This document shows positions 2-15,025 of a stretch of 64,000 nt of DNA, in pieces. The first letter of the stretch is position 1. Every line of letters starts with the position of its first letter. The notes below the pieces were generated by a model. It saw only the letters and a list, made by a program, of their open reading frames with translations, did not search any database and was not told the origin of the DNA. Source of the DNA: Dehalococcoidia bacterium (GTDB taxonomy: Bacteria; Chloroflexota; Dehalococcoidia; GIF9; UBA5629). Made by a program: the position numbers and the translations under genes. The DNA lies in NCBI GenBank assembly GCA_003142375.1, contig PLME01000011.1, forward strand, positions 81,475 to 145,474, read 5' to 3'.

Positions 2-256
2 AGCGGTAATTCTATGATCGATGCGCTGATAGCCGATGGCGATATCGTTTTAATGGAACCTGTAAAATCTGTTGAAAATGGTGACATGGTGGCGGCCTGG
101 CTGAAAAAGGAAGAGGAGGTTACATTAAAAAGGTTTTTCCGTGAAGAGGACTTGATCAGGCTCCAACCTGCCAATATTCAGATGAAACCCATCTTTACCG
201 ACCCCGCCAATATCGAGGTCCAGGGCAAAGTGGTTGCAGTAATTAGGACCCTCTAA
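2..256 (+). CDS. lexA: LexA repressor, C-terminal S24 peptidase domain (5'-truncated by window edge)
   Basis: The frame is open from position 2. The Gly-x-Ser-Met catalytic serine motif (SGNSMIDALIADGDIV) and the C-terminal GKVVAVIRTL beta-strands are typical of LexA/S24. The N-terminal wHTH lies outside the window. Confidence 0.7.
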   Translation, partial: SGNSMIDALIADGDIVLMEPVKSVENGDMVAAWLKKEEEVTLKRFFREEDLIRLQPANIQMKPIFTDPANIEVQGKVVAVIRTL

Positions 257-425
257 GCCTTACGTGCCGCTGAGATTTTCTTCGATATCGGCTGTTCTTA
301 TCTTCCCCTGACTTCCGGGAACACAGAATTTCTAAAAACCGGTCAAGGAAGTATAATTCTACTCATTACCAGCGTCTATCTCGCTTATTTTGTTATTTTC
401 AGTACGCGGTTAATTGGAGGTTAAA

Positions 426-1433
426 ATGAACGACGATTATACAATACTTGCCGGACTCTACGGTTACAAGGACTCTGACAGGTTTAAAAAGATACTGAAG
501 ATTTTGATTAATGAGGAACAGATCAAGCTCATCAACTTCATGCCCGCCACAGTTGAAGAGCTGGCACAGAAGACCAATGTTTCTCCGGAAGCTATCAAAC
601 CTATGGTTGACGATCTTTTTAATAAAGGGGTCATCTTCGAGTCTTCCAAAGGTTACCGTCCGGCGCGCCATATTTTTCAGCTGCATGATTCGACGGGAAG
701 CGACAGCAGATCAGACAAAATATGGGGCAGGAAACTGTTGGATGCGTGGATGGACTTCTCTGAAAACGAGTTGTTTCGCGATACGGCCAAGTGGGTGTTA
801 AATTTTCCAAGGCCGTTTTCCCGGGTTGTCCCTGCCATGTCATCATTTGCCCGGAAGCCAGATCTGGCTGAGGGCGAGGATCTGGAATCGGTAATCGACC
901 ATGCAACCAGAATCGCTGTAGTGCAGTGCCCCTGCCGAAGAATGGCGCAAAAATGCGACAGGCCGATTGAGGTATGCTTACAGCTCAATAAAGGTGCTGA
1001 ATACGCCATAAAACGCGGGTCGGGTAAAGAGGTGTCCATCCAGGATGCTAAAAAGATACTTCACACCGCGTCGGAGGCGGGACTTGTCCACACTGTTGAA
1101 AACGTGCCGCAGGCGGGAACTTACATTTGTAACTGTTGCCCGGACTGCTGTGTTTTACTGTACCCCTGGCTTACTTATGGTAATTTGGATAAAGGCCTTG
1201 CCAGGAGCCGGTTTGAGGCTAAGGTGGACGAGGAATCGTGCAGCGGGTGTCAGGACTGTGTCGAGCAGTGCCCTTTCAGCGCCATAGAGATGACCAAAGT
1301 ACCGGGCCAGAAGAAATTGAAGGCGAAGGTCAATCCCGATAAATGTTACGGCTGTGGATGCTGCGCTGTTAATTGCCTGACTGAATCCATCAAATTGCAT
1401 GAAGTCAGGCCGCCCGAATATTTGGCTGTCTGA
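426..1433 (+). CDS. winged-HTH / Fe-S cluster fusion protein (two C-terminal CxxCxxCxxxCP ferredoxin motifs plus CPC..C and CNCCPDCC cysteine clusters); putative redox-sensing regulator
   Basis: The ORF track gives 414..1433. ATG 426 follows a GGAGG RBS (416-420). The N-terminus has a MarR/ArsR-like wHTH segment (LINFMPATVEELAQKTNVSPEAIKPMVDDLFNKGVIF). The C-terminal half carries CSGCQDCVEQCP and CYGCGCCAVNCL 4Fe-4S motifs and additional Cys clusters. Confidence 0.55.
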   Translation: MNDDYTILAGLYGYKDSDRFKKILKILINEEQIKLINFMPATVEELAQKTNVSPEAIKPMVDDLFNKGVIFESSKGYRPARHIFQLHDSTGSDSRSDKIWGRKLLDAWMDFSENELFRDTAKWVLNFPRPFSRVVPAMSSFARKPDLAEGEDLESVIDHATRIAVVQCPCRRMAQKCDRPIEVCLQLNKGAEYAIKRGSGKEVSIQDAKKILHTASEAGLVHTVENVPQAGTYICNCCPDCCVLLYPWLTYGNLDKGLARSRFEAKVDEESCSGCQDCVEQCPFSAIEMTKVPGQKKLKAKVNPDKCYGCGCCAVNCLTESIKLHEVRPPEYLAV

Positions 1434-1593
1434 ACATCAAAAAAACAATTCAAACCTGAGTTCCAATTGTCCGGAAAACAGTTCTGTCGCGCTTCTTCAA
1501 CACACTCAAATTTCTTGCTCGGCTCCCTTTTTTAGCTCACAACCATCCAACCTTGTCAATAGCCAAATAGTCCTAATCGGTGAACCGACTGGC

Positions 1594-1622
1594 TTGACAT
1601 TTCGAGCGGAGCGGCTCAAAAT
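1594..1622 (+). promoter_or_regulatory. candidate sigma70-type promoter (TTGACA-17 nt-CAAAAT) upstream of ORF 1676
   Basis: TTGACA sits at 1594-1599, followed by a 17-nt spacer and CAAAAT at 1617-1622. It lies in a 240-nt non-coding gap. Confidence 0.3.
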
Positions 1623-1651
1623 GGTACTATAGTACCAGTACGTAGGTACGT
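1623..1651 (+). promoter_or_regulatory. candidate operator: perfect 14-bp palindrome GGTACTATAGTACC followed by two more GTAC cores
   Basis: GGTACTATAGTACC at 1623-1636 is self-complementary. GTAC occurs four times, at 1624, 1632, 1638 and 1646. The array lies directly at the predicted +1 of the promoter above. Confidence 0.35.
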
Positions 1652-1675: not shown

Positions 1676-2107
1676 GTGTGGGTTATGAAGGGCAAAATTA
1701 TTTGGATTACAGCAATTGGTTTAGCCGGCACCATTGTGCTGGGCGTATCTCTTGCGTTGCCTTCAATGCTTAGAGCGGACAACAACCAGTCGGCTACCAT
1801 GCCGACGTCCGAAATCGCCAAAGCCTATAAACAGGCGCTTATATCTCCGCTTAATAAGGCTACCAGCGAAATCAAGGACCCTGAACTTGCCAGCTTCACA
1901 CAGAAGCTGGTGCAGTCTTATGAACTGGAAAAGACAACCGCTAACACCGGTGACCAATCCAGCCTTGCAGATCTTCTGCCTGATGTAGCCAAAATTGAGA
2001 AGAACGCTATTAACATGCCCCTCAAAGAGGCCGGAAAACAGTTGAAAGATAAAGAGCTTTCCGACTTCTACAACCGCTTTATTACCACTTGCGGCGTAGA
2101 CAACTAG
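1676..2107 (+). CDS. hypothetical exported/membrane-anchored protein
   Basis: An N-terminal hydrophobic segment (IIWITAIGLAGTIVLGVSLALPSML) is followed by a hydrophilic, lysine/glutamate-rich domain. There are no recognisable motifs. The real start may be ATG 1685. Confidence 0.45.
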   Translation: MWVMKGKIIWITAIGLAGTIVLGVSLALPSMLRADNNQSATMPTSEIAKAYKQALISPLNKATSEIKDPELASFTQKLVQSYELEKTTANTGDQSSLADLLPDVAKIEKNAINMPLKEAGKQLKDKELSDFYNRFITTCGVDN

Positions 2108-3572: not shown

Positions 3573-4199
3573 ATGAACGACAAAGCAACTAAAAAACAGA
3601 AAAGGACCAAATCAGCCAATGCTAAGTTACAGCGAATTGCGAAGATAGCATCTACCCTTTTTTTTGAGAAAGGCTTCACGGAAACTACGGTCAGGGATAT
3701 CTCCAAGGCCTGCAATATAAGCATGGGGCATCTCTATTACTACATAAAATCCAAGGATGATTTCCCCGTGATATTCGGCGAGATACATTTAAAAAATATA
3801 AGTAAATGGGAATATGAAGTCCGCAGAGAAATGTTAAAAAGTCCGCCCGAAACAACCTTACGCTTCGCCGTCAGAAACTATTTACATCTGATACACGCAA
3901 GGCGCAAGATGATGCTTTTCTGGTACAGGGTGGCAAAGTCCCTCAAACCTGAACAGTTGCAGGGCGTAATTGAATCCGAAGTGCGGGTGGTAAACGTGTT
4001 TAAACAGATAGTGCAAACCGGCGTCCAGCAGGGCCAGTTCAAGGTGAGCGACCCTTTTCTTACAGCCTTTCAAATTGAGGTTTTATGTCATACATGGATT
4101 TTAAAACGGTGGTTCCTGCACGATCTCTATACAATTGACCAGTTTGTAGATATATGTGAGAACAATGCAGTTTCCATGGTGCGAGGAATTACCGAGTAA
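3573..4199 (+). CDS. TetR/AcrR family transcriptional regulator
   Basis: A TetR HTH is present (FFEKGFTETTVRDISKACNISMGHLYYYIKSKDD). It has a basic N-terminal extension and a C-terminal ligand-binding helical domain. Confidence 0.75.
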   Translation: MNDKATKKQKRTKSANAKLQRIAKIASTLFFEKGFTETTVRDISKACNISMGHLYYYIKSKDDFPVIFGEIHLKNISKWEYEVRREMLKSPPETTLRFAVRNYLHLIHARRKMMLFWYRVAKSLKPEQLQGVIESEVRVVNVFKQIVQTGVQQGQFKVSDPFLTAFQIEVLCHTWILKRWFLHDLYTIDQFVDICENNAVSMVRGITE

Positions 4200-4911
4200 T
4201 TTTGAAAGACTTCTGGGGCTTGGATGCGGGATTGCCTTTGACCATAGCGGCAATAAGGGCCACGATTTGGTCCACATACTGGTCTACAGTACGGCTGTCT
4301 TTATATAACCATCTCTTCAAAGCCCAGGTTTGACACATCATAACAATATTACTTGCAACTATGAATGGGTCTTTGACGTGAAACTGTCCCTGCTTGCATC
4401 CGGACTCGAGTATTTCCCGAAATACCTTTACTACCTGCTTTTCGACTTCCATTATACCGGCGCTGTCTTCCTTTTTAACTTGTACTGCAGCGTGGTACCA
4501 GAAAACCGTCATCTTCCGCCCTGTATGGACTACGTATGCATAGTCTGTTACAGCTTTCTTCAGTAATTCGTCCGGAGGTACACGCTTCATCTCTTTGCGG
4601 ATTGCCTTTTCCCACTTATCAATGCTATTTTTTTGGATTGTCCTGAAAATTGCCGGGAAATCGTCTTTCGATTTGATGTAGTAATACAGGTGTCCGGGAC
4701 TGATATTGCAGGCCTCGCCTATATCCCTGGTAGTAGTGGGACCATACCCTTTCTTATGAAACAGGTCCGCCGCCGCCATCACAATTTGTAGTAATTTGGC
4801 GCTGGGTTTCTTACTCCTTATAATAGCATCAAGATCATCCATCGTTATATCTTCACGAGGCGCCTTGTTTTTACGAACTTTCACAAGTTTATCTGAGGCC
4901 ACTGGCGACAT
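4189..4911 (-). CDS. TetR/AcrR family transcriptional regulator (paralogue of 3573..4199)
   Basis: Its HTH (FHKKGYGPTTTRDIGEACNISPGHLYYYIKSKDDFPAIF) and C-terminal motifs (QGQFHVKDPF vs QGQFKVSDPF) are clearly paralogous to the plus-strand gene. The two 3' ends overlap by 11 nt. Confidence 0.75.
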   Translation of the reverse strand: MSPVASDKLVKVRKNKAPREDITMDDLDAIIRSKKPSAKLLQIVMAAADLFHKKGYGPTTTRDIGEACNISPGHLYYYIKSKDDFPAIFRTIQKNSIDKWEKAIRKEMKRVPPDELLKKAVTDYAYVVHTGRKMTVFWYHAAVQVKKEDSAGIMEVEKQVVKVFREILESGCKQGQFHVKDPFIVASNIVMMCQTWALKRWLYKDSRTVDQYVDQIVALIAAMVKGNPASKPQKSFKITR

Positions 4912-8512: not shown

Positions 8513-9277
8513 ATGGCTTTATTAGAACTAAACGACGTGACCAAACTCTTCGGCAAACTTGCCGCAGTCGAGGATATCGATCTGCAGGTAGAGGAAGGTG
8601 AGATCCTCGGCATTGTCGGGCCCAACGGCTCGGGCAAGACCACGCTGATCAACTTAATTTCAGGTTATTACAAGCCTACGCGCGGCGACATATATTTTAA
8701 AGGAAGAAAAATATCCGGGCTGAGGCCCGATCAAATAGCCAGGCTGGGCATTGTCAGGACCTTTCAGTCGAATGTGCTCTTTGAAGGTGCTTCAGTAATC
8801 GAGAGCATGATGATCAGTTCCAGGCTGCAGTATAAGACCAGCGACTGGCAGGCCTTCTTCAATACCAGGACCTATAAAGACGAGCAGGAAAAGGTGGTCG
8901 GCAACCTGCTTGAAACGCTGCAGCTGCTGGATATCTTTAACGAGACATTCAGGCCGGCAGCGGCCCTCTCACACGGCTACCAGCGCATGCTGGGAATAGC
9001 CGCGGCCCTGGCTGCCAATCCCAGCGTCCTGATGCTCGACGAACCTACCACCGGCATGAACCACGAAGAAGCCATGTTCGTGGTGGAAAATATTAAAAAG
9101 ATCAACCAGCAGGGAATTACGGTATTGCTGATCGAACACAATATGAAAGTGCTGCTGGGTGTGGCTACCAGGGTGGTCGTCCTGAGCTTCGGCAATAAGA
9201 TCGCCGACGGCGACCCCTACGAAATGATGAGCAAGCCGGAGGTCATCGAGGCATACCTGGGCACGGAGACGGTGTAA
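8513..9277 (+). CDS. ABC transporter ATP-binding protein, LivG family
   Basis: Walker A (GPNGSGKTT), ABC signature (LSHGYQRMLGIA) and Walker B (LMLDEPTTGM) are all present. Confidence 0.85.
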   Translation: MALLELNDVTKLFGKLAAVEDIDLQVEEGEILGIVGPNGSGKTTLINLISGYYKPTRGDIYFKGRKISGLRPDQIARLGIVRTFQSNVLFEGASVIESMMISSRLQYKTSDWQAFFNTRTYKDEQEKVVGNLLETLQLLDIFNETFRPAAALSHGYQRMLGIAAALAANPSVLMLDEPTTGMNHEEAMFVVENIKKINQQGITVLLIEHNMKVLLGVATRVVVLSFGNKIADGDPYEMMSKPEVIEAYLGTETV

Positions 9278-12444: not shown

Positions 12445-13173
12445 TTACCGGCAATTGGGGCAGACGTCGAAGAACCCTTTTGGTAGGTCCCATTTCTTGC
12501 GGATGTACTCAAGCTGCTTTTCGGGCGCCCATTCAATGCCGCAGACCTTACATTTTTGCAGCCTGTATTTAATTTTCCAGTTGTAGATATAACGATAACC
12601 TTTTTTATCTTCCATTTTGATAGCGCCGGTCGGGCAGGCGTAGTAGCATGAGCCGCAGCCGATGCATGCCTTGGCGCTTTCGAGATAGGGAGATGCGGGT
12701 CCTTTGGTTATGCCGCGGTTCACCAGGCTGATAGCACTGACACCCACTACCTGCTCACAAACCCTGGCGCAGAGGCCGCAGACAATACAGTTTTCCTTGG
12801 TCCAGTATTCCTTTTCGAAGGATGATTTTTCGATGCCGTATTCAGCCGCCAGCTGCTTAATAACCTTGTTTTCCGAACACCTTGCAAGCAGCAGGTCCAG
12901 CAGCATCTTGCGGTTGCCGACTACCCTGGGGGAATCCGTTTCGACTACCAGGCCTTCCTCAACCGGGAAAAGGCATGAGGTCACAATGCGTTTCCTGGTT
13001 CCACGAGTGATCTCAACGATACATAACCGGCAGGCACCATAGGGTTCTACCGCATCAAGGTTGCATAAAGAAGGTATTTTGATGCCGTGAGCCCTGGCCA
13101 CCTGCAATATATACTGGCCCTTCTCGGCCGTATATTTATTGCCGTTTACAGTCAGAGTAACTAATTCACTCAA
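12445..13173 (-). CDS. NuoG-N-terminal-like polyferredoxin (2Fe-2S + 4Fe-4S clusters), no catalytic domain
   Basis: The likely TTG start at 13173 overlaps the nuoF-like stop by 8 nt; alternative ATG starts are 13203 and 13239. The protein begins VTLTVNGNKYTAEKGQYILQVARAHGIKIPSLC (2Fe-2S) and carries CIVCGLCARVCEQ and CIGCGSCYYACP 4Fe-4S motifs. It ends with a CxxC..CPNC ribbon. Confidence 0.65.
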   Translation of the reverse strand: MSELVTLTVNGNKYTAEKGQYILQVARAHGIKIPSLCNLDAVEPYGACRLCIVEITRGTRKRIVTSCLFPVEEGLVVETDSPRVVGNRKMLLDLLLARCSENKVIKQLAAEYGIEKSSFEKEYWTKENCIVCGLCARVCEQVVGVSAISLVNRGITKGPASPYLESAKACIGCGSCYYACPTGAIKMEDKKGYRYIYNWKIKYRLQKCKVCGIEWAPEKQLEYIRKKWDLPKGFFDVCPNCR

Positions 13174-15025
13174 TCTTAACAGCCCCCAATTTACACACTT
13201 CATAACAGGTGCGGCACTTAATGCATTTAGCCTGATCAAGCACGACCGGCTTTCTTTTGCCCACAGCTGTTATAGCCCCGGCCGGACAGGCTTTGACACA
13301 CAGGCCGCAATCGGGACATTTTTCCTCAATTATCGAGAAGGTGATCAGGTCTTTGCATACGCCGGCCCTGCATTTCTTGAGTTTAATGTGCTCTATGTAT
13401 TCCTCCCTGAAATATTGCATGGTTGTAAGTACCGGGTTGGGTGCTGAGCCGCCCAACTGGCATAGCGCACTATCCCTTAAACAGTGGCCGACTTCTTCCA
13501 GGAGAGGAAGGTCGCTTTCCTTGCCCGCACCGGACGTTATGTCATTTAAAATCTGTCGCATCCTCTTGATGCCTTCGCGACAGGGTACGCATTTACCGCA
13601 TGATTCTTCCTCAAGGAATGAGAGGTAATACTTGGCTATGTCAACCATGCAGTTGTTCTCGTCCATCACGATCATGCCGCCTGATCCCATCATTGAGCCG
13701 ACCTTGGTCAGCGCGTCGAAATCAACAGGCATGTCGAGCATACTCTCCGGCAGGCAACCTCCGGAAGGACCGCCGGTTTGGACGGCCTTGAATTTCTTGC
13801 CTTCGCGAATGCCTCCGCCTATATTAAAAATAATGTCCCGGAGCTGTATGCCCATGGGCACTTCCACCAGGCCAGTATTGTTAACCTTGCCCGTTAGAGA
13901 GAAGATCTTGGTGCCTGTGTTGGTCGGTGTGCCTATCTTCTTGAACCAAGCAGCCCCATTATTGATTATGAGGGGAATATTGGCCCAGGTCTCCACGTTA
14001 TTCAGGTCGCTGGGCCTGTCCCACAACCCTTTTTCCACAGTATGCGTATATTTGGCCCGCGGCTAGCCGACTTTGCCTTCCAGTGATGCCATCAGAGCAG
14101 TGGATTCACCGCAAATAAAGGCGCCGCCACCACGATTGACCCTGACTTCAAAATCGAATCCCGAACCCAGGATATTTTTGCCCAGCAAACCCAATTTCCC
14201 GGCCTGTTCCATGGCATTTATGATGTTCTTCAAGGCTAGCGGGTATTCGTTTCGCACGTAGATATAGCCCTGATGGGAACCTATGGCAAAGGCACCGATA
14301 ATCAAGCCTTCCAGTACGCTATGAGGGTTGCCAGTCAACAGGCCCTCATTGGCATAGGCCCCGGGGTCACCCTCGTCAGCATTGACAATAACGTACTTGA
14401 TATCTCCGTGCGCCTTCCGGCAGCTTTCCCATTTAGCGCCGGTGGTAAACCCACCACCTCCGCGGCCGCGCAGCCCGGATTGCTTAATGATATCGATGAT
14501 TTGCTCGGGCTGATAGTCGAAGAGGGCCTTGGCCAGGGCGGAATATCCGCCTATGGAGATGTAGTCCTCGATGCTAGTCGGATCGATTCTGATATTGTTG
14601 CCCAGGATAATGCGTTTCTGGTTTTTATAGAAAGGCAAATCAGCCTGGGCTGTAATCTCAGCCTTAGTTAACGGGTCTTTGAATAAAAGCCGGCTGATGA
14701 CCTGCTTGTTGAGAACCGTTTTATCCAGAATTTCCGGTACATCTTCCGGCTTTATCTTCTGATAAAAAATATTCCCCGGCTCTACAATGGCAATGGGTCC
14801 CCTTTCGCAGAACCCGTGACAACCTGTTACCTTAAATTCGACCTGGTCGGTCAGGCCTTTTTTATTTATCTCGGCTTTAAAGGCTTCGACAACCGGGTTG
14901 CTGCCATACGGGCGGCAAGCGGTTCCGTTGCAGACCGAAACCCGTGCCTTATCAGTCCCCAGCCCTTTGGCCAGTTTCTTGTTCAGCGCTTCTAGTTCTT
15001 TAGGAGATTTCAGTTTACCCGGCAT
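13166..15025 (-). pseudogene. NuoF-like NAD(P)H-binding flavoprotein, HndC/HydB architecture, interrupted by an in-frame TAG at 14063-14065
   Basis: ORFs 14063..15025 and 13166..14038 are in the same frame. The N-terminal part has a thioredoxin-like 2Fe-2S domain, GGGGF and NADEGDPGA motifs and ends [14 protein letters not shown]. The C-terminal part continues [30 protein letters not shown], carries the ESCGKCVPCREG N3-cluster motif and has 2x CxxCxxCxxxCP. The canonical KPPFPA loop is replaced by KYTHTV. Confidence 0.6.

What the first reader, a model, noticed from the sequence alone, without database searches (positions are those of the whole stretch)
426..1433. Winged-HTH fused to a multi-cluster Fe-S domain: candidate redox- or metabolite-sensing transcription factor
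The N-terminal 100 aa have a MarR/ArsR-like recognition-helix segment (EELAQKTNVSPEAIKPMVDDLFNKGVIF). The C-terminal 200 aa contain CPCRRMAQKC, CNCCPDCC and two canonical CxxCxxCxxxCP ferredoxin motifs, i.e. at least two and possibly three Fe-S clusters. This architecture is unusual for a regulator. It sits beside lexA and upstream of a promoter carrying a striking palindrome (see next finding). The regulator role is my inference from domain order, and it could instead be an electron-transfer protein with a non-DNA-binding helical N-domain.
Basis: partly seen in the sequence, partly recalled or inferred. Interest (0 to 1): 0.5.

Follow-up and report, generated by a model that had tools for sequence, protein, structure and literature searches.

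The report
Uncharacterised winged-helix, multi-cluster iron-sulfur protein
This gene encodes a member of a large, unstudied family of iron-sulfur proteins from strict anaerobes: a winged-helix domain, a nine-cysteine domain with no solved structural relative, and a two-cluster ferredoxin module; it looks more like an electron-transfer protein or enzyme than a DNA-binding regulator.

Summary
ORF 426-1433 (335 aa, GGAGG ribosome-binding site) is a real gene next to lexA.

AlphaFold2 gives a confident single body (pLDDT 94, pTM 0.91) with three parts:
- a 170-aa middle domain with nine near-invariant Cys;
- a 2x[4Fe-4S] ferredoxin module.

The architecture is conserved in at least 1,450 50%-identity clusters. 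These come from Dehalococcoidia, Syntrophia, Desulfobacteria, Actinomycetota, Archaeoglobi, Hadesarchaea and Bathyarchaeota. Every source names them only "4Fe-4S binding protein".

The transcription-factor reading is weakly supported:
- The recognition helix is acidic across the family.
- Invariant non-core residues tie the N-domain to the rest of the protein.
- No operator or conserved target gene was found.
- lexA adjacency is limited to the four closest relatives.

Most loci stand alone. Flanking genes are about 2.5-fold enriched for acyl-CoA metabolism. One real fusion (SCP2 + this protein) follows a 2-hydroxyacyl-CoA-dehydratase/activase operon.

Best reading: a soluble redox protein. Function remains untested.

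The parts
14..256 (+). 3' end of lexA (S24 peptidase domain). The gene runs off the window start.
   Evidence: Pfam Peptidase_S24, E 1.4e-16. Full lexA lies upstream of the orthologue in L001-L004.
349..357 (+). AAGTATAAT, a -10-like element conserved in the three closest loci. Likely the gene's own promoter.
   Evidence: Alignment of the lexA to Fe-S gene spacer in the window, L007 and L008. L009 and L010 have only a 42-43 bp spacer and lack this element.
416..420 (+). Ribosome-binding site GGAGG
   Evidence: Sequence. Invariant in five aligned loci.
426..1433 (+). CDS, 335 aa: winged helix + Cys9 domain + 2x[4Fe-4S] ferredoxin module
   Evidence: AF2 pLDDT 94.2, pTM 0.91.
426..710 (+). N-terminal helical / winged-helix domain (aa 1-95). 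Recognition helix aa 54-66, wing aa 68-82, conserved QLHD at aa 85-88.
711..1217 (+). Middle Cys9 domain (aa 96-264), with no known relative in the libraries searched
927..977 (+). Cys motif C168-P-C170-x6-C177-x6-C184
   Evidence: Conserved in 164, 164, 158 and 164 of 164 members respectively.
1128..1151 (+). Cys motif C235-N-C237-C238-P-D240-C241-C242. Position 240 is Asp or Cys across the family.
   Evidence: C177, C238 and C241 are lost together in 4 members.
1218..1400 (+). 2x[4Fe-4S] ferredoxin module (aa 265-325). Motifs C272/275/278/282-P and C307/310/313/317.

Best explanation
The gene encodes a soluble multi-cluster iron-sulfur redox protein. It belongs to a widespread, uncharacterised family restricted to anaerobic bacteria and archaea.

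Shown:
- A three-part architecture that is conserved end to end.
- A canonical 2x[4Fe-4S] ferredoxin module.
- Nine conserved Cys in a middle domain with no relative among solved structures.
- A winged-helix fold at the N-terminus.

Inferred:
- Electrons enter or leave through the two ferredoxin clusters.
- They are relayed to one or two further metal sites in the middle domain. Site A would be C168/C170/C184/C235/C237/C242. Site B would be C177/C238/C241, plus Asp or Cys at position 240.
- At those sites a partner protein or small substrate is reduced or oxidised. In many lineages that partner comes from acyl-CoA metabolism (ADP-forming acyl-CoA synthetase, acyl-CoA dehydrogenase, enoyl-CoA hydratase, 2-hydroxyacyl-CoA-dehydratase-type enzymes).
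- The winged helix, with an acidic 'recognition' helix and a basic wing, is a built-in structural or docking module, not a sequence-specific DNA reader.

In this window the gene has its own promoter. Its position after lexA is a local feature of one small clade.
For: - Ferredoxin module: passes the Pfam cut-offs and the fold matches.
- Cysteines: all 17 conserved Cys are kept in 147-164 of 164 diverse members.
- Metal sites: co-loss of C177/C238/C241 and Asp/Cys alternation at position 240 point to two separate sites in the middle domain.
- Rigid body: the full-length model has pTM 0.91, so the N-domain is not predicted as a free module.
- N-domain conservation: invariant or near-invariant polar residues outside a wH core (S17, R19, H87, D88) and in the middle domain (R171, Y193, R197, H222, N236) suggest a pocket or an interface.
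- Recognition helix: acidic family-wide.
- Conserved length: architecture and length (about 330-340 aa) are kept at 34-39% identity between Chloroflexota, Desulfobacterota and Archaea, with at least 1,450 cluster representatives.
- Neighbourhood: acyl-CoA genes make up 12.4% of genes at positions -2, -1 and +1, against 5.2% further out (Fisher p 0.006). 15 of 71 loci have one at +-1.
- Examples: ACD sits 27 bp upstream in Desulfatitalea. ACAD sits directly upstream in L091 and L092.
- Fusion: an SCP2-fused member, seen on 18 or more contigs, directly follows HGD-D x2 + BcrAD_BadFG activase, a system that needs a low-potential electron donor.
- Precedent: a wHTH acts as a protein-protein interface in an Fe-S electron-transfer complex, namely BamF in class II benzoyl-CoA reductase (10.64898/2026.04.10.717634).
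Against: - No partner gene is conserved across the family, and 38 of 59 loci look monocistronic. The acyl-CoA link covers only about 20-40% of loci and is modest.
- The window's own locus has no adjacent redox or acyl-CoA enzyme gene. The nearest AMP-ligase is 9 kb away.
- The wing is conserved and basic, and the fold's closest neighbours are true DNA-binding repressors.
- No metal content, redox or activity data exist for any member. I could not inspect Cys-Cys distances in the model, so the cluster count is inferred from sequence only.
Confidence: 0.55

Rival explanations
1. Redox-sensing transcription factor. The winged helix binds DNA, mainly through the basic wing. The Fe-S domains report the redox state of the ferredoxin pool or the presence of an oxidant, and so switch DNA binding. 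This would be a ferredoxin-level analogue of Rex.
For: - Weak hits to HTH_11, TrmB, MarR and Rrf2. Many Desulfobacterota members have a precomputed TrmB hit.
- Conserved basic residues at K49, K/R67, K75, R78 and R81. Wing charge is +6 in Desulfobacterota.
- Variable, mostly stand-alone contexts and several paralogues per genome are typical of regulators.
- The position beside acyl-CoA genes would also suit a pathway regulator.
Against: - The recognition helix is acidic in 89-100% of members, at the positions that contact DNA in TrmB/ArsR-type proteins.
- No HTH model reaches its cut-off.
- The N-domain is rigidly integrated and carries invariant non-core residues.
- Three or four clusters arranged as a relay are typical of electron transfer. 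Known Fe-S sensors use one cluster (established knowledge of IscR, NsrR, FNR, SoxR and WhiB).
- No palindromic operator was found upstream of the gene in the window clade.
- The gene often sits at the 3' end of metabolic operons.
- One apparent wH-less variant exists.
Confidence: 0.2
2. DNA-damage or nucleic-acid-directed Fe-S protein. In this clade the gene belongs to the SOS response and acts on DNA or RNA, with the wing binding nucleic acid non-specifically.
For: - The gene lies directly after lexA in the window, L007, L008, L009 and L010.
- In L009 and L010 the spacer is only 42-43 bp, without a promoter. lexA there carries an upstream Cheo-type box, AGAACAAATGT[TA]CG, so co-transcription under LexA is likely.
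- The wing is basic.
Against: - lexA linkage is seen in only 4 of about 73 non-redundant loci.
- The window copy has a 160-bp spacer, its own -10 element and no LexA box.
- There is no similarity to known Fe-S repair or modification enzymes in Pfam, NCBIfam or the PDB.
Confidence: 0.08
3. Metal- or thiol-handling protein. The very Cys-dense motif (CNCCxDCC, or CNCCxCCC in 68 of 164 members) would bind or buffer a metal, or carry a redox-active disulfide or persulfide as in ferredoxin:thioredoxin reductase, rather than ordinary clusters.
For: - CPC and CxC pairs recall the CPC...CPC...CHC pattern of the FTR catalytic subunit (my recollection, used only as a lead).
- Six Cys are kept even when three others are lost.
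- An MBL-fold (glyoxalase-II-like) gene overlaps the start of the Fe-S gene in the clade about 51% identical to the query.
Against: - No Pfam FeThRed_B or CCG hit.
- No FTR or HdrB fold match.
- The attached ferredoxin module argues for an electron relay to clusters.
Confidence: 0.1

Closest known systems
Bacterial-type 2x[4Fe-4S] ferredoxin modules fused to enzymes (PorD/OFOR delta subunit, AprB, PsaC, polyferredoxins FwdF/MvhB)
   Different: Those proteins lack the winged helix and the Cys9 domain. The match covers only aa 264-330.
Fe-S-containing winged-helix regulators (Rrf2 family IscR/NsrR/RirA; ArsR-like SufR; ArnR)
   Same: Both combine a winged-helix fold with Cys-bound iron-sulfur chemistry in one polypeptide.
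   Different: Those regulators bind one cluster through 3-4 Cys next to a basic recognition helix and act as dimers. Here there are 17 conserved Cys, a ferredoxin module and an acidic recognition helix. The Rrf2 Pfam score is 13 bits against a cut-off of 30.
Rex (winged helix + Rossmann NADH sensor)
   Same: Conceptually alike: a winged helix fused to a module that binds a redox carrier.
   Different: No sequence or fold relation outside the winged helix. Rex has a basic recognition helix and defined operators. A true Rex gene lies two genes downstream of one family member (L092), so the two coexist.
wHTH modules used as protein-protein interfaces in redox complexes (BamF adaptor of class II benzoyl-CoA reductase; DsrD of dissimilatory sulfite reductase, the latter from my own knowledge)
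   Same: A winged helix inside or beside an Fe-S electron-transfer system, without a DNA-binding role.
   Different: No homology was shown. Those are separate subunits or different domain contexts.
EFR1 family ferredoxin (NCBIfam NF038196)
   Same: Best non-generic NCBIfam hit for the whole protein (E 8.5e-9).
   Different: The score is 35.8 bits against a cut-off of 75. The middle domain alone gives no hit, so the similarity comes only from the ferredoxin motifs.

Membership tests
2x[4Fe-4S] ferredoxin domain (Pfam Fer4 / Fer4_7) | Two CxxCxxCxxxC motifs and a score above the gathering cut-off | tested here: met
   Fer4 34.4 bits (cut-off 21.1) and Fer4_7 34.5 bits (cut-off 27) at aa 266-319. 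The eight Cys are conserved in 157-162 of 164 members.
2x[4Fe-4S] ferredoxin domain (Pfam Fer4 / Fer4_7) | Ferredoxin (beta-alpha-beta)2 fold | tested here: met
2x[4Fe-4S] ferredoxin domain (Pfam Fer4 / Fer4_7) | Two cubane clusters actually bound | not testable with these tools
   Needs Fe/S analysis and EPR.
Winged-helix (ArsR/MarR/TrmB-type) transcription factor | Winged helix-turn-helix fold | tested here: met
Winged-helix (ArsR/MarR/TrmB-type) transcription factor | Sequence membership in a curated HTH family | tested here: not met
   All below cut-off: HTH_11 24.7 vs 25, MarR 13.7 vs 24.6, TrmB 14.6 vs 25.6, Rrf2 13 vs 30. No NCBIfam regulator model comes near its cut-off.
Winged-helix (ArsR/MarR/TrmB-type) transcription factor | Basic or polar recognition helix able to enter the major groove | tested here: not met
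   Helix 3 net charge: median -1, with 11% of 164 members positive. In 120 Desulfobacterota members the median is -2 and none is positive.
Winged-helix (ArsR/MarR/TrmB-type) transcription factor | Specific operator DNA, usually a palindrome near its own or a target promoter | tested here: inconclusive
   No conserved palindrome lies in the upstream spacer of the window clade. The Smithella clade shows a conserved promoter-to-RBS block that could hold an operator for some factor. The downstream palindrome at 1623-1636 is unique in the window.
Winged-helix (ArsR/MarR/TrmB-type) transcription factor | DNA binding and dimerisation | not testable with these tools
   Needs EMSA or DAP-seq and SEC-MALS, or multimer modelling.
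EFR1 family ferredoxin (NF038196) | Score above the NCBIfam cut-off across the model | tested here: not met
   35.8 bits vs cut-off 75. The middle domain alone has no hit.
Ferredoxin:thioredoxin reductase catalytic subunit / HdrB CCG-type Cys-rich domains | Sequence or fold similarity to FeThRed_B or CCG domains | tested here: not met
LexA (SOS) regulon member | Cheo-type LexA box AGAACnnnTGT[TA]CG in its promoter | tested here: not met
   The boxes sit upstream of lexA in L008-L010. No match lies before the Fe-S gene; the only window hit (1 mismatch) is at 9067, inside a coding region.

The most novel reading that the evidence does not exclude
The family is a ferredoxin-level redox-sensing transcription factor shared by strictly anaerobic bacteria and archaea. 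Its built-in ferredoxin relay would equilibrate with the cellular ferredoxin pool. The redox state of the novel Cys9 site would reposition a wing-dominated winged helix on DNA. This would be the low-potential counterpart of Rex.
Probability: 0.15. Interest if true: 0.85.

Novelty: new variant of a known kind. Interest (0 to 1): 0.5.

Why it matters
Strict anaerobes run much of their metabolism on low-potential iron-sulfur carriers, yet many of their "4Fe-4S binding proteins" have no assigned role.

This family is large (at least 1,450 50%-identity clusters) and spans two domains of life. Its confidently modelled 170-residue, nine-cysteine domain has no relative in Pfam, NCBIfam or any solved structure.

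If that domain holds a new type of cluster or a catalytic site linked to acyl-CoA chemistry, it would add an enzyme or carrier to fatty-acid, aromatic and hydrocarbon degradation pathways in syntrophs, sulfate reducers and subsurface Chloroflexota. If instead it is a regulator, it would be the first sensor of the ferredoxin pool. Either outcome can be tested with one recombinant protein.

Tried and rejected
- EFR1 ferredoxin membership: rejected. The hit is below cut-off and comes only from the ferredoxin motifs.
- FTR-like or CCG-like Cys domains: no sequence or fold support.
- Profile of the middle domain against PDB sequences: the only hits were designed pentatricopeptide repeats, with per-repeat scores of 5-6 bits. 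These are spurious.
- A LexA box in front of the gene: none.
- Extra copies of the 1623-1636 palindrome as a possible regulon: none. The single 3-mismatch hit is at chance level.
- Rfam on 1-2600: nothing.
- A universally conserved neighbour: none in 118 flanking proteins. The commonest Pfam family (Lactamase_B) covers 10 and is clade-specific.
- AlphaFold-database fold search: that library was unavailable.
- wH-less variants as proof that the N-domain is dispensable: P0239 lies at a contig edge and is uninformative. P0259 looks real but rests on one 973-bp contig.
- Literature searches for a characterised member found none.
- I could not read model coordinates. Cys-Cys geometry and burial of helix 3 were therefore not checked.

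Full report
**1. The observation**

The + strand ORF 426..1433 starts with ATG five bases after a GGAGG and encodes 335 aa. The upstream ORF 14..256 is the S24-peptidase end of LexA (full lexA in the orthologous loci).

Homologues are found at E down to 1e-210 and share the same length, so the gene is real.

Three small corrections apply:
- Only the first ferredoxin motif ends in CP.
- C312 in the second motif is not conserved.
- The invariant C184 was overlooked, so the middle region has nine conserved Cys.

**2. Anatomy**

Pfam recognises only the C-terminal dicluster ferredoxin above threshold: Fer4 at 34.4 bits and Fer4_7 at 34.5 bits. Several HTH or winged-helix models score just below their cut-offs on aa 34-77.

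No chain covers more than one part.

The intervening 170 residues (aa 96-264) were modelled separately (pLDDT 93.5). They have no structural neighbour:
- Foldseek against all PDB chains to April 2026 has a best E of 1.7 and TM <= 0.21.
- There is no Pfam hit at E <= 10 and no NCBIfam hit.
- A profile search of PDB sequences returns only spurious designed-repeat matches.

**3. The cysteines**

In an alignment of 164 diverse members, all nine middle-domain Cys are present in 147-164 sequences. These are C168, C170, C177, C184, C235, C237, C238, C241 and C242. The eight ferredoxin Cys are present in 157-162.

Two patterns suggest how the nine are used:
- C177, C238 and C241 are lost together in four members that keep the other six.
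- Position 240 is Asp in about half of the family and Cys in 68 members. Such an exchange is typical of a cluster ligand; this is my inference, by analogy with Asp-ligated cubanes.

I therefore propose two sites:
- Site B: C177/C238/C241, plus residue 240.
- Site A: six Cys, namely C168/C170/C184/C235/C237/C242.

That would give up to four metal centres. This is inferred from sequence, because I could not read the model's coordinates.

**4. The family**

The N-terminal plus middle part alone (262 aa) finds 1,450 representatives of 50%-identity clusters at E <= 1e-3, and 525 at <= 1e-10. Most are 320-370 aa and align from near residue 1.

A scan of one genome per species gives at least 497 loci. 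They come from:
- Dehalococcoidia;
- Syntrophaceae/Smithella and Desulfobacteraceae;
- anaerobic Actinomycetota;
- Nitrospirales, Binataceae and Abyssobacteria;
- Archaeoglobi, Hadesarchaea and Bathyarchaeota.

A Thermoplasmata member appears among the protein hits. Several genomes carry more than one copy.

Identity between Chloroflexota and archaeal members is 34-39% over the whole length.

All names given by sources are generic ("4Fe-4S binding protein"). JGI's automatic names append "predicted transcriptional regulator", "MarR", "ArsR" and the like. Three literature searches found no characterised member.

**5. Is the winged helix a DNA reader?**

Against DNA binding:
- The exposed face of helix 3 is acid-rich. 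D/E make up 40-55% of residues at positions 53-55 and 37-48% at positions 62-63.
- Net charge of aa 54-66 has a median of -1, and only 11% of members are positive.
- In 120 Desulfobacterota members, aa 53-66 has a median of -2 and none is positive. The consensus pEeEIEkMIDPLFkKG carries Glu where TrmB-type regulators carry R/S/K/Y (the TrmB comparison is from my knowledge of that family).
- The N-domain has invariant or near-invariant residues that a generic wH core does not require: Y5, Y14, S17, R19, and Q85-L-H87-D88.
- The whole protein is predicted as one rigid body (pTM 0.91).

For nucleic-acid binding:
- The wing is conserved and basic. K/R67 is present in 91% of members, along with K75, R78 and R81. 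Wing charge is +6 in Desulfobacterota.

Wing-led nucleic-acid binding, or docking of a phosphate-rich ligand or an acidic partner, therefore cannot be excluded.

A recent structure-based preprint on class II benzoyl-CoA reductase describes a wHTH motif in the BamF adaptor that serves as an interface with BamI. This shows that such modules are used for protein contacts in Fe-S electron-transfer machines.

**6. Genomic context**

I called ORFs in about 70-73 non-redundant loci and clustered the neighbours.
- No neighbour is universal.
- 38 of 59 loci with both flanks have no same-strand neighbour within 80 bp.
- lexA precedes the gene only in the four closest loci, at 64-91% identity.

In L009 and L010 the spacer is 42-43 bp, and lexA has an upstream box AGAACAAATGT[TA]CG, so co-transcription is likely there. 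In the window the spacer is 160 bp with a conserved AAGTATAAT and no LexA box.

A clade about 51% identical to the query has an overlapping upstream MBL-fold gene.

Across phyla, the recurrent theme is acyl-CoA metabolism:
- Such genes make up 12.4% of genes at positions -2, -1 and +1, against 5.2% further out (odds ratio 2.6, Fisher p 0.006).
- ACD lies 27 bp upstream of the gene in Desulfatitalea, preceded by two CoA-transferase subunits.
- ACAD lies directly upstream in L091 and L092, the latter after a 2-oxoacid:ferredoxin oxidoreductase.
- A fused 3-hydroxyacyl-CoA dehydrogenase/enoyl-CoA hydratase lies 6 bp downstream in an archaeal MAG.

One variant, P0212, carries an N-terminal SCP2 lipid-binding domain. 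It has been seen on 18 or more contigs. It follows two HGD-D genes, a BcrAD_BadFG activase and a ParA-like ATPase on the same strand. Enzymes of that type need a low-potential one-electron donor (established knowledge of 2-hydroxyacyl-CoA dehydratases and class I benzoyl-CoA reductase).

The link is real but partial. It does not apply visibly to the window's own locus. There the neighbours are lexA, a small secreted protein, two TetR genes and an ABC transporter.

**7. Interpretation**

The most economical reading is a soluble redox protein. A ferredoxin relay feeds one or two additional sites in a novel Cys9 domain, and the winged helix serves as an integrated structural or docking element. 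Whether the protein is a dedicated carrier or a catalyst is open.

The conserved polar residues around the Cys motifs (R171, Y193, R197, H222, N236) lean towards a binding pocket. I give this reading 0.55.

The rivals are:
- The transcription-factor reading keeps 0.2, because of the fold, the basic wing and the regulator-like scatter of contexts.
- An SOS or nucleic-acid role gets 0.08.
- A thiol- or metal-handling role gets 0.1.

**8. Novelty and score**

The ferredoxin module and the winged-helix fold are ordinary. The combination, the conserved nine-Cys domain without any known relative, and the size and spread of the unannotated family are not.

I rate it a new variant of a known kind, with interest 0.5. 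It is a good, cheap target for biochemistry, but there is no evidence yet for the striking regulatory mechanism that was proposed.

Noticed in passing
window 1553-1650: This non-coding block is almost identical in L007 and L008 while its flanks diverge. It holds TTGACA-N17-CAAAAT and the perfect palindrome GGTACTATAGTACC (1623-1636), directly upstream of a 143-aa signal-peptide ORF (1676..2107). There is no Rfam hit, and the palindrome is unique in the window. It is probably the promoter and operator of that downstream gene.
   Followed up: partly
window 13166-15025 (-): A NuoF/HydB-like gene (2Fe-2S_thioredx + Complex1_51K) is interrupted by an in-frame TAG at 14063-14065, inside the conserved SLEGKxG*PRxK motif. 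The next ORF continues in the same frame. This could be a pseudogene, a sequencing error or stop-codon read-through.
   Followed up: no
window 3573-4911: Two TetR_N + TetR_C_24 paralogues are convergent and overlap by 11 nt: 3573..4199 (+) and 4189..4911 (-). They sit between the Fe-S gene region and a branched-chain-type ABC transporter. The close relative L001 has only one TetR gene here.
   Followed up: no
L087-L089, 3702-10514: An SCP2-fused family member (P0212, 446 aa) sits in a same-strand cluster: HGD-D x2, BcrAD_BadFG activase, a ParA/CbiA-like ATPase, then P0212, then a Zn-alcohol dehydrogenase. Two more HGD-D genes lie nearby, beyond IS elements.
   Followed up: partly
L055, L059, L079, L080, L082, L085 (about 80 nt upstream of the gene start): Smithella/Syntrophaceae orthologues share a consensus promoter TTCTTGACA-N17-GATACT. 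The spacer (GAAAGAnnTATTTCCC) and the 5' UTR (TTTCCACAATTCTTTGAAA) are unusually conserved, whereas sequence further upstream is not. This may be an operator for an unknown factor.
   Followed up: no
L008 5180-5195; L009 5300-5315; L010 4363-4378: Cheo-type LexA boxes AGAACAAATGT[TA]CG lie upstream of lexA in these Dehalococcoidia. This fits a Gram-positive-type SOS box in this class.
   Followed up: partly
L020 352-2704; L060 5983-10594; L055 4704-6966; L050 5923-9202: Two family paralogues (26-32% identical to the query) lie within 0.3-3 kb of each other in several genomes, in tandem in L020. This indicates local duplication.
   Followed up: no
L092 9401-9976: A true Rex repressor gene (Put_DNA-bind_N + CoA_binding) lies two genes downstream of a family member. 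That member follows an OFOR, an NfnB-like gene, a ferredoxin and an ACAD.
   Followed up: no
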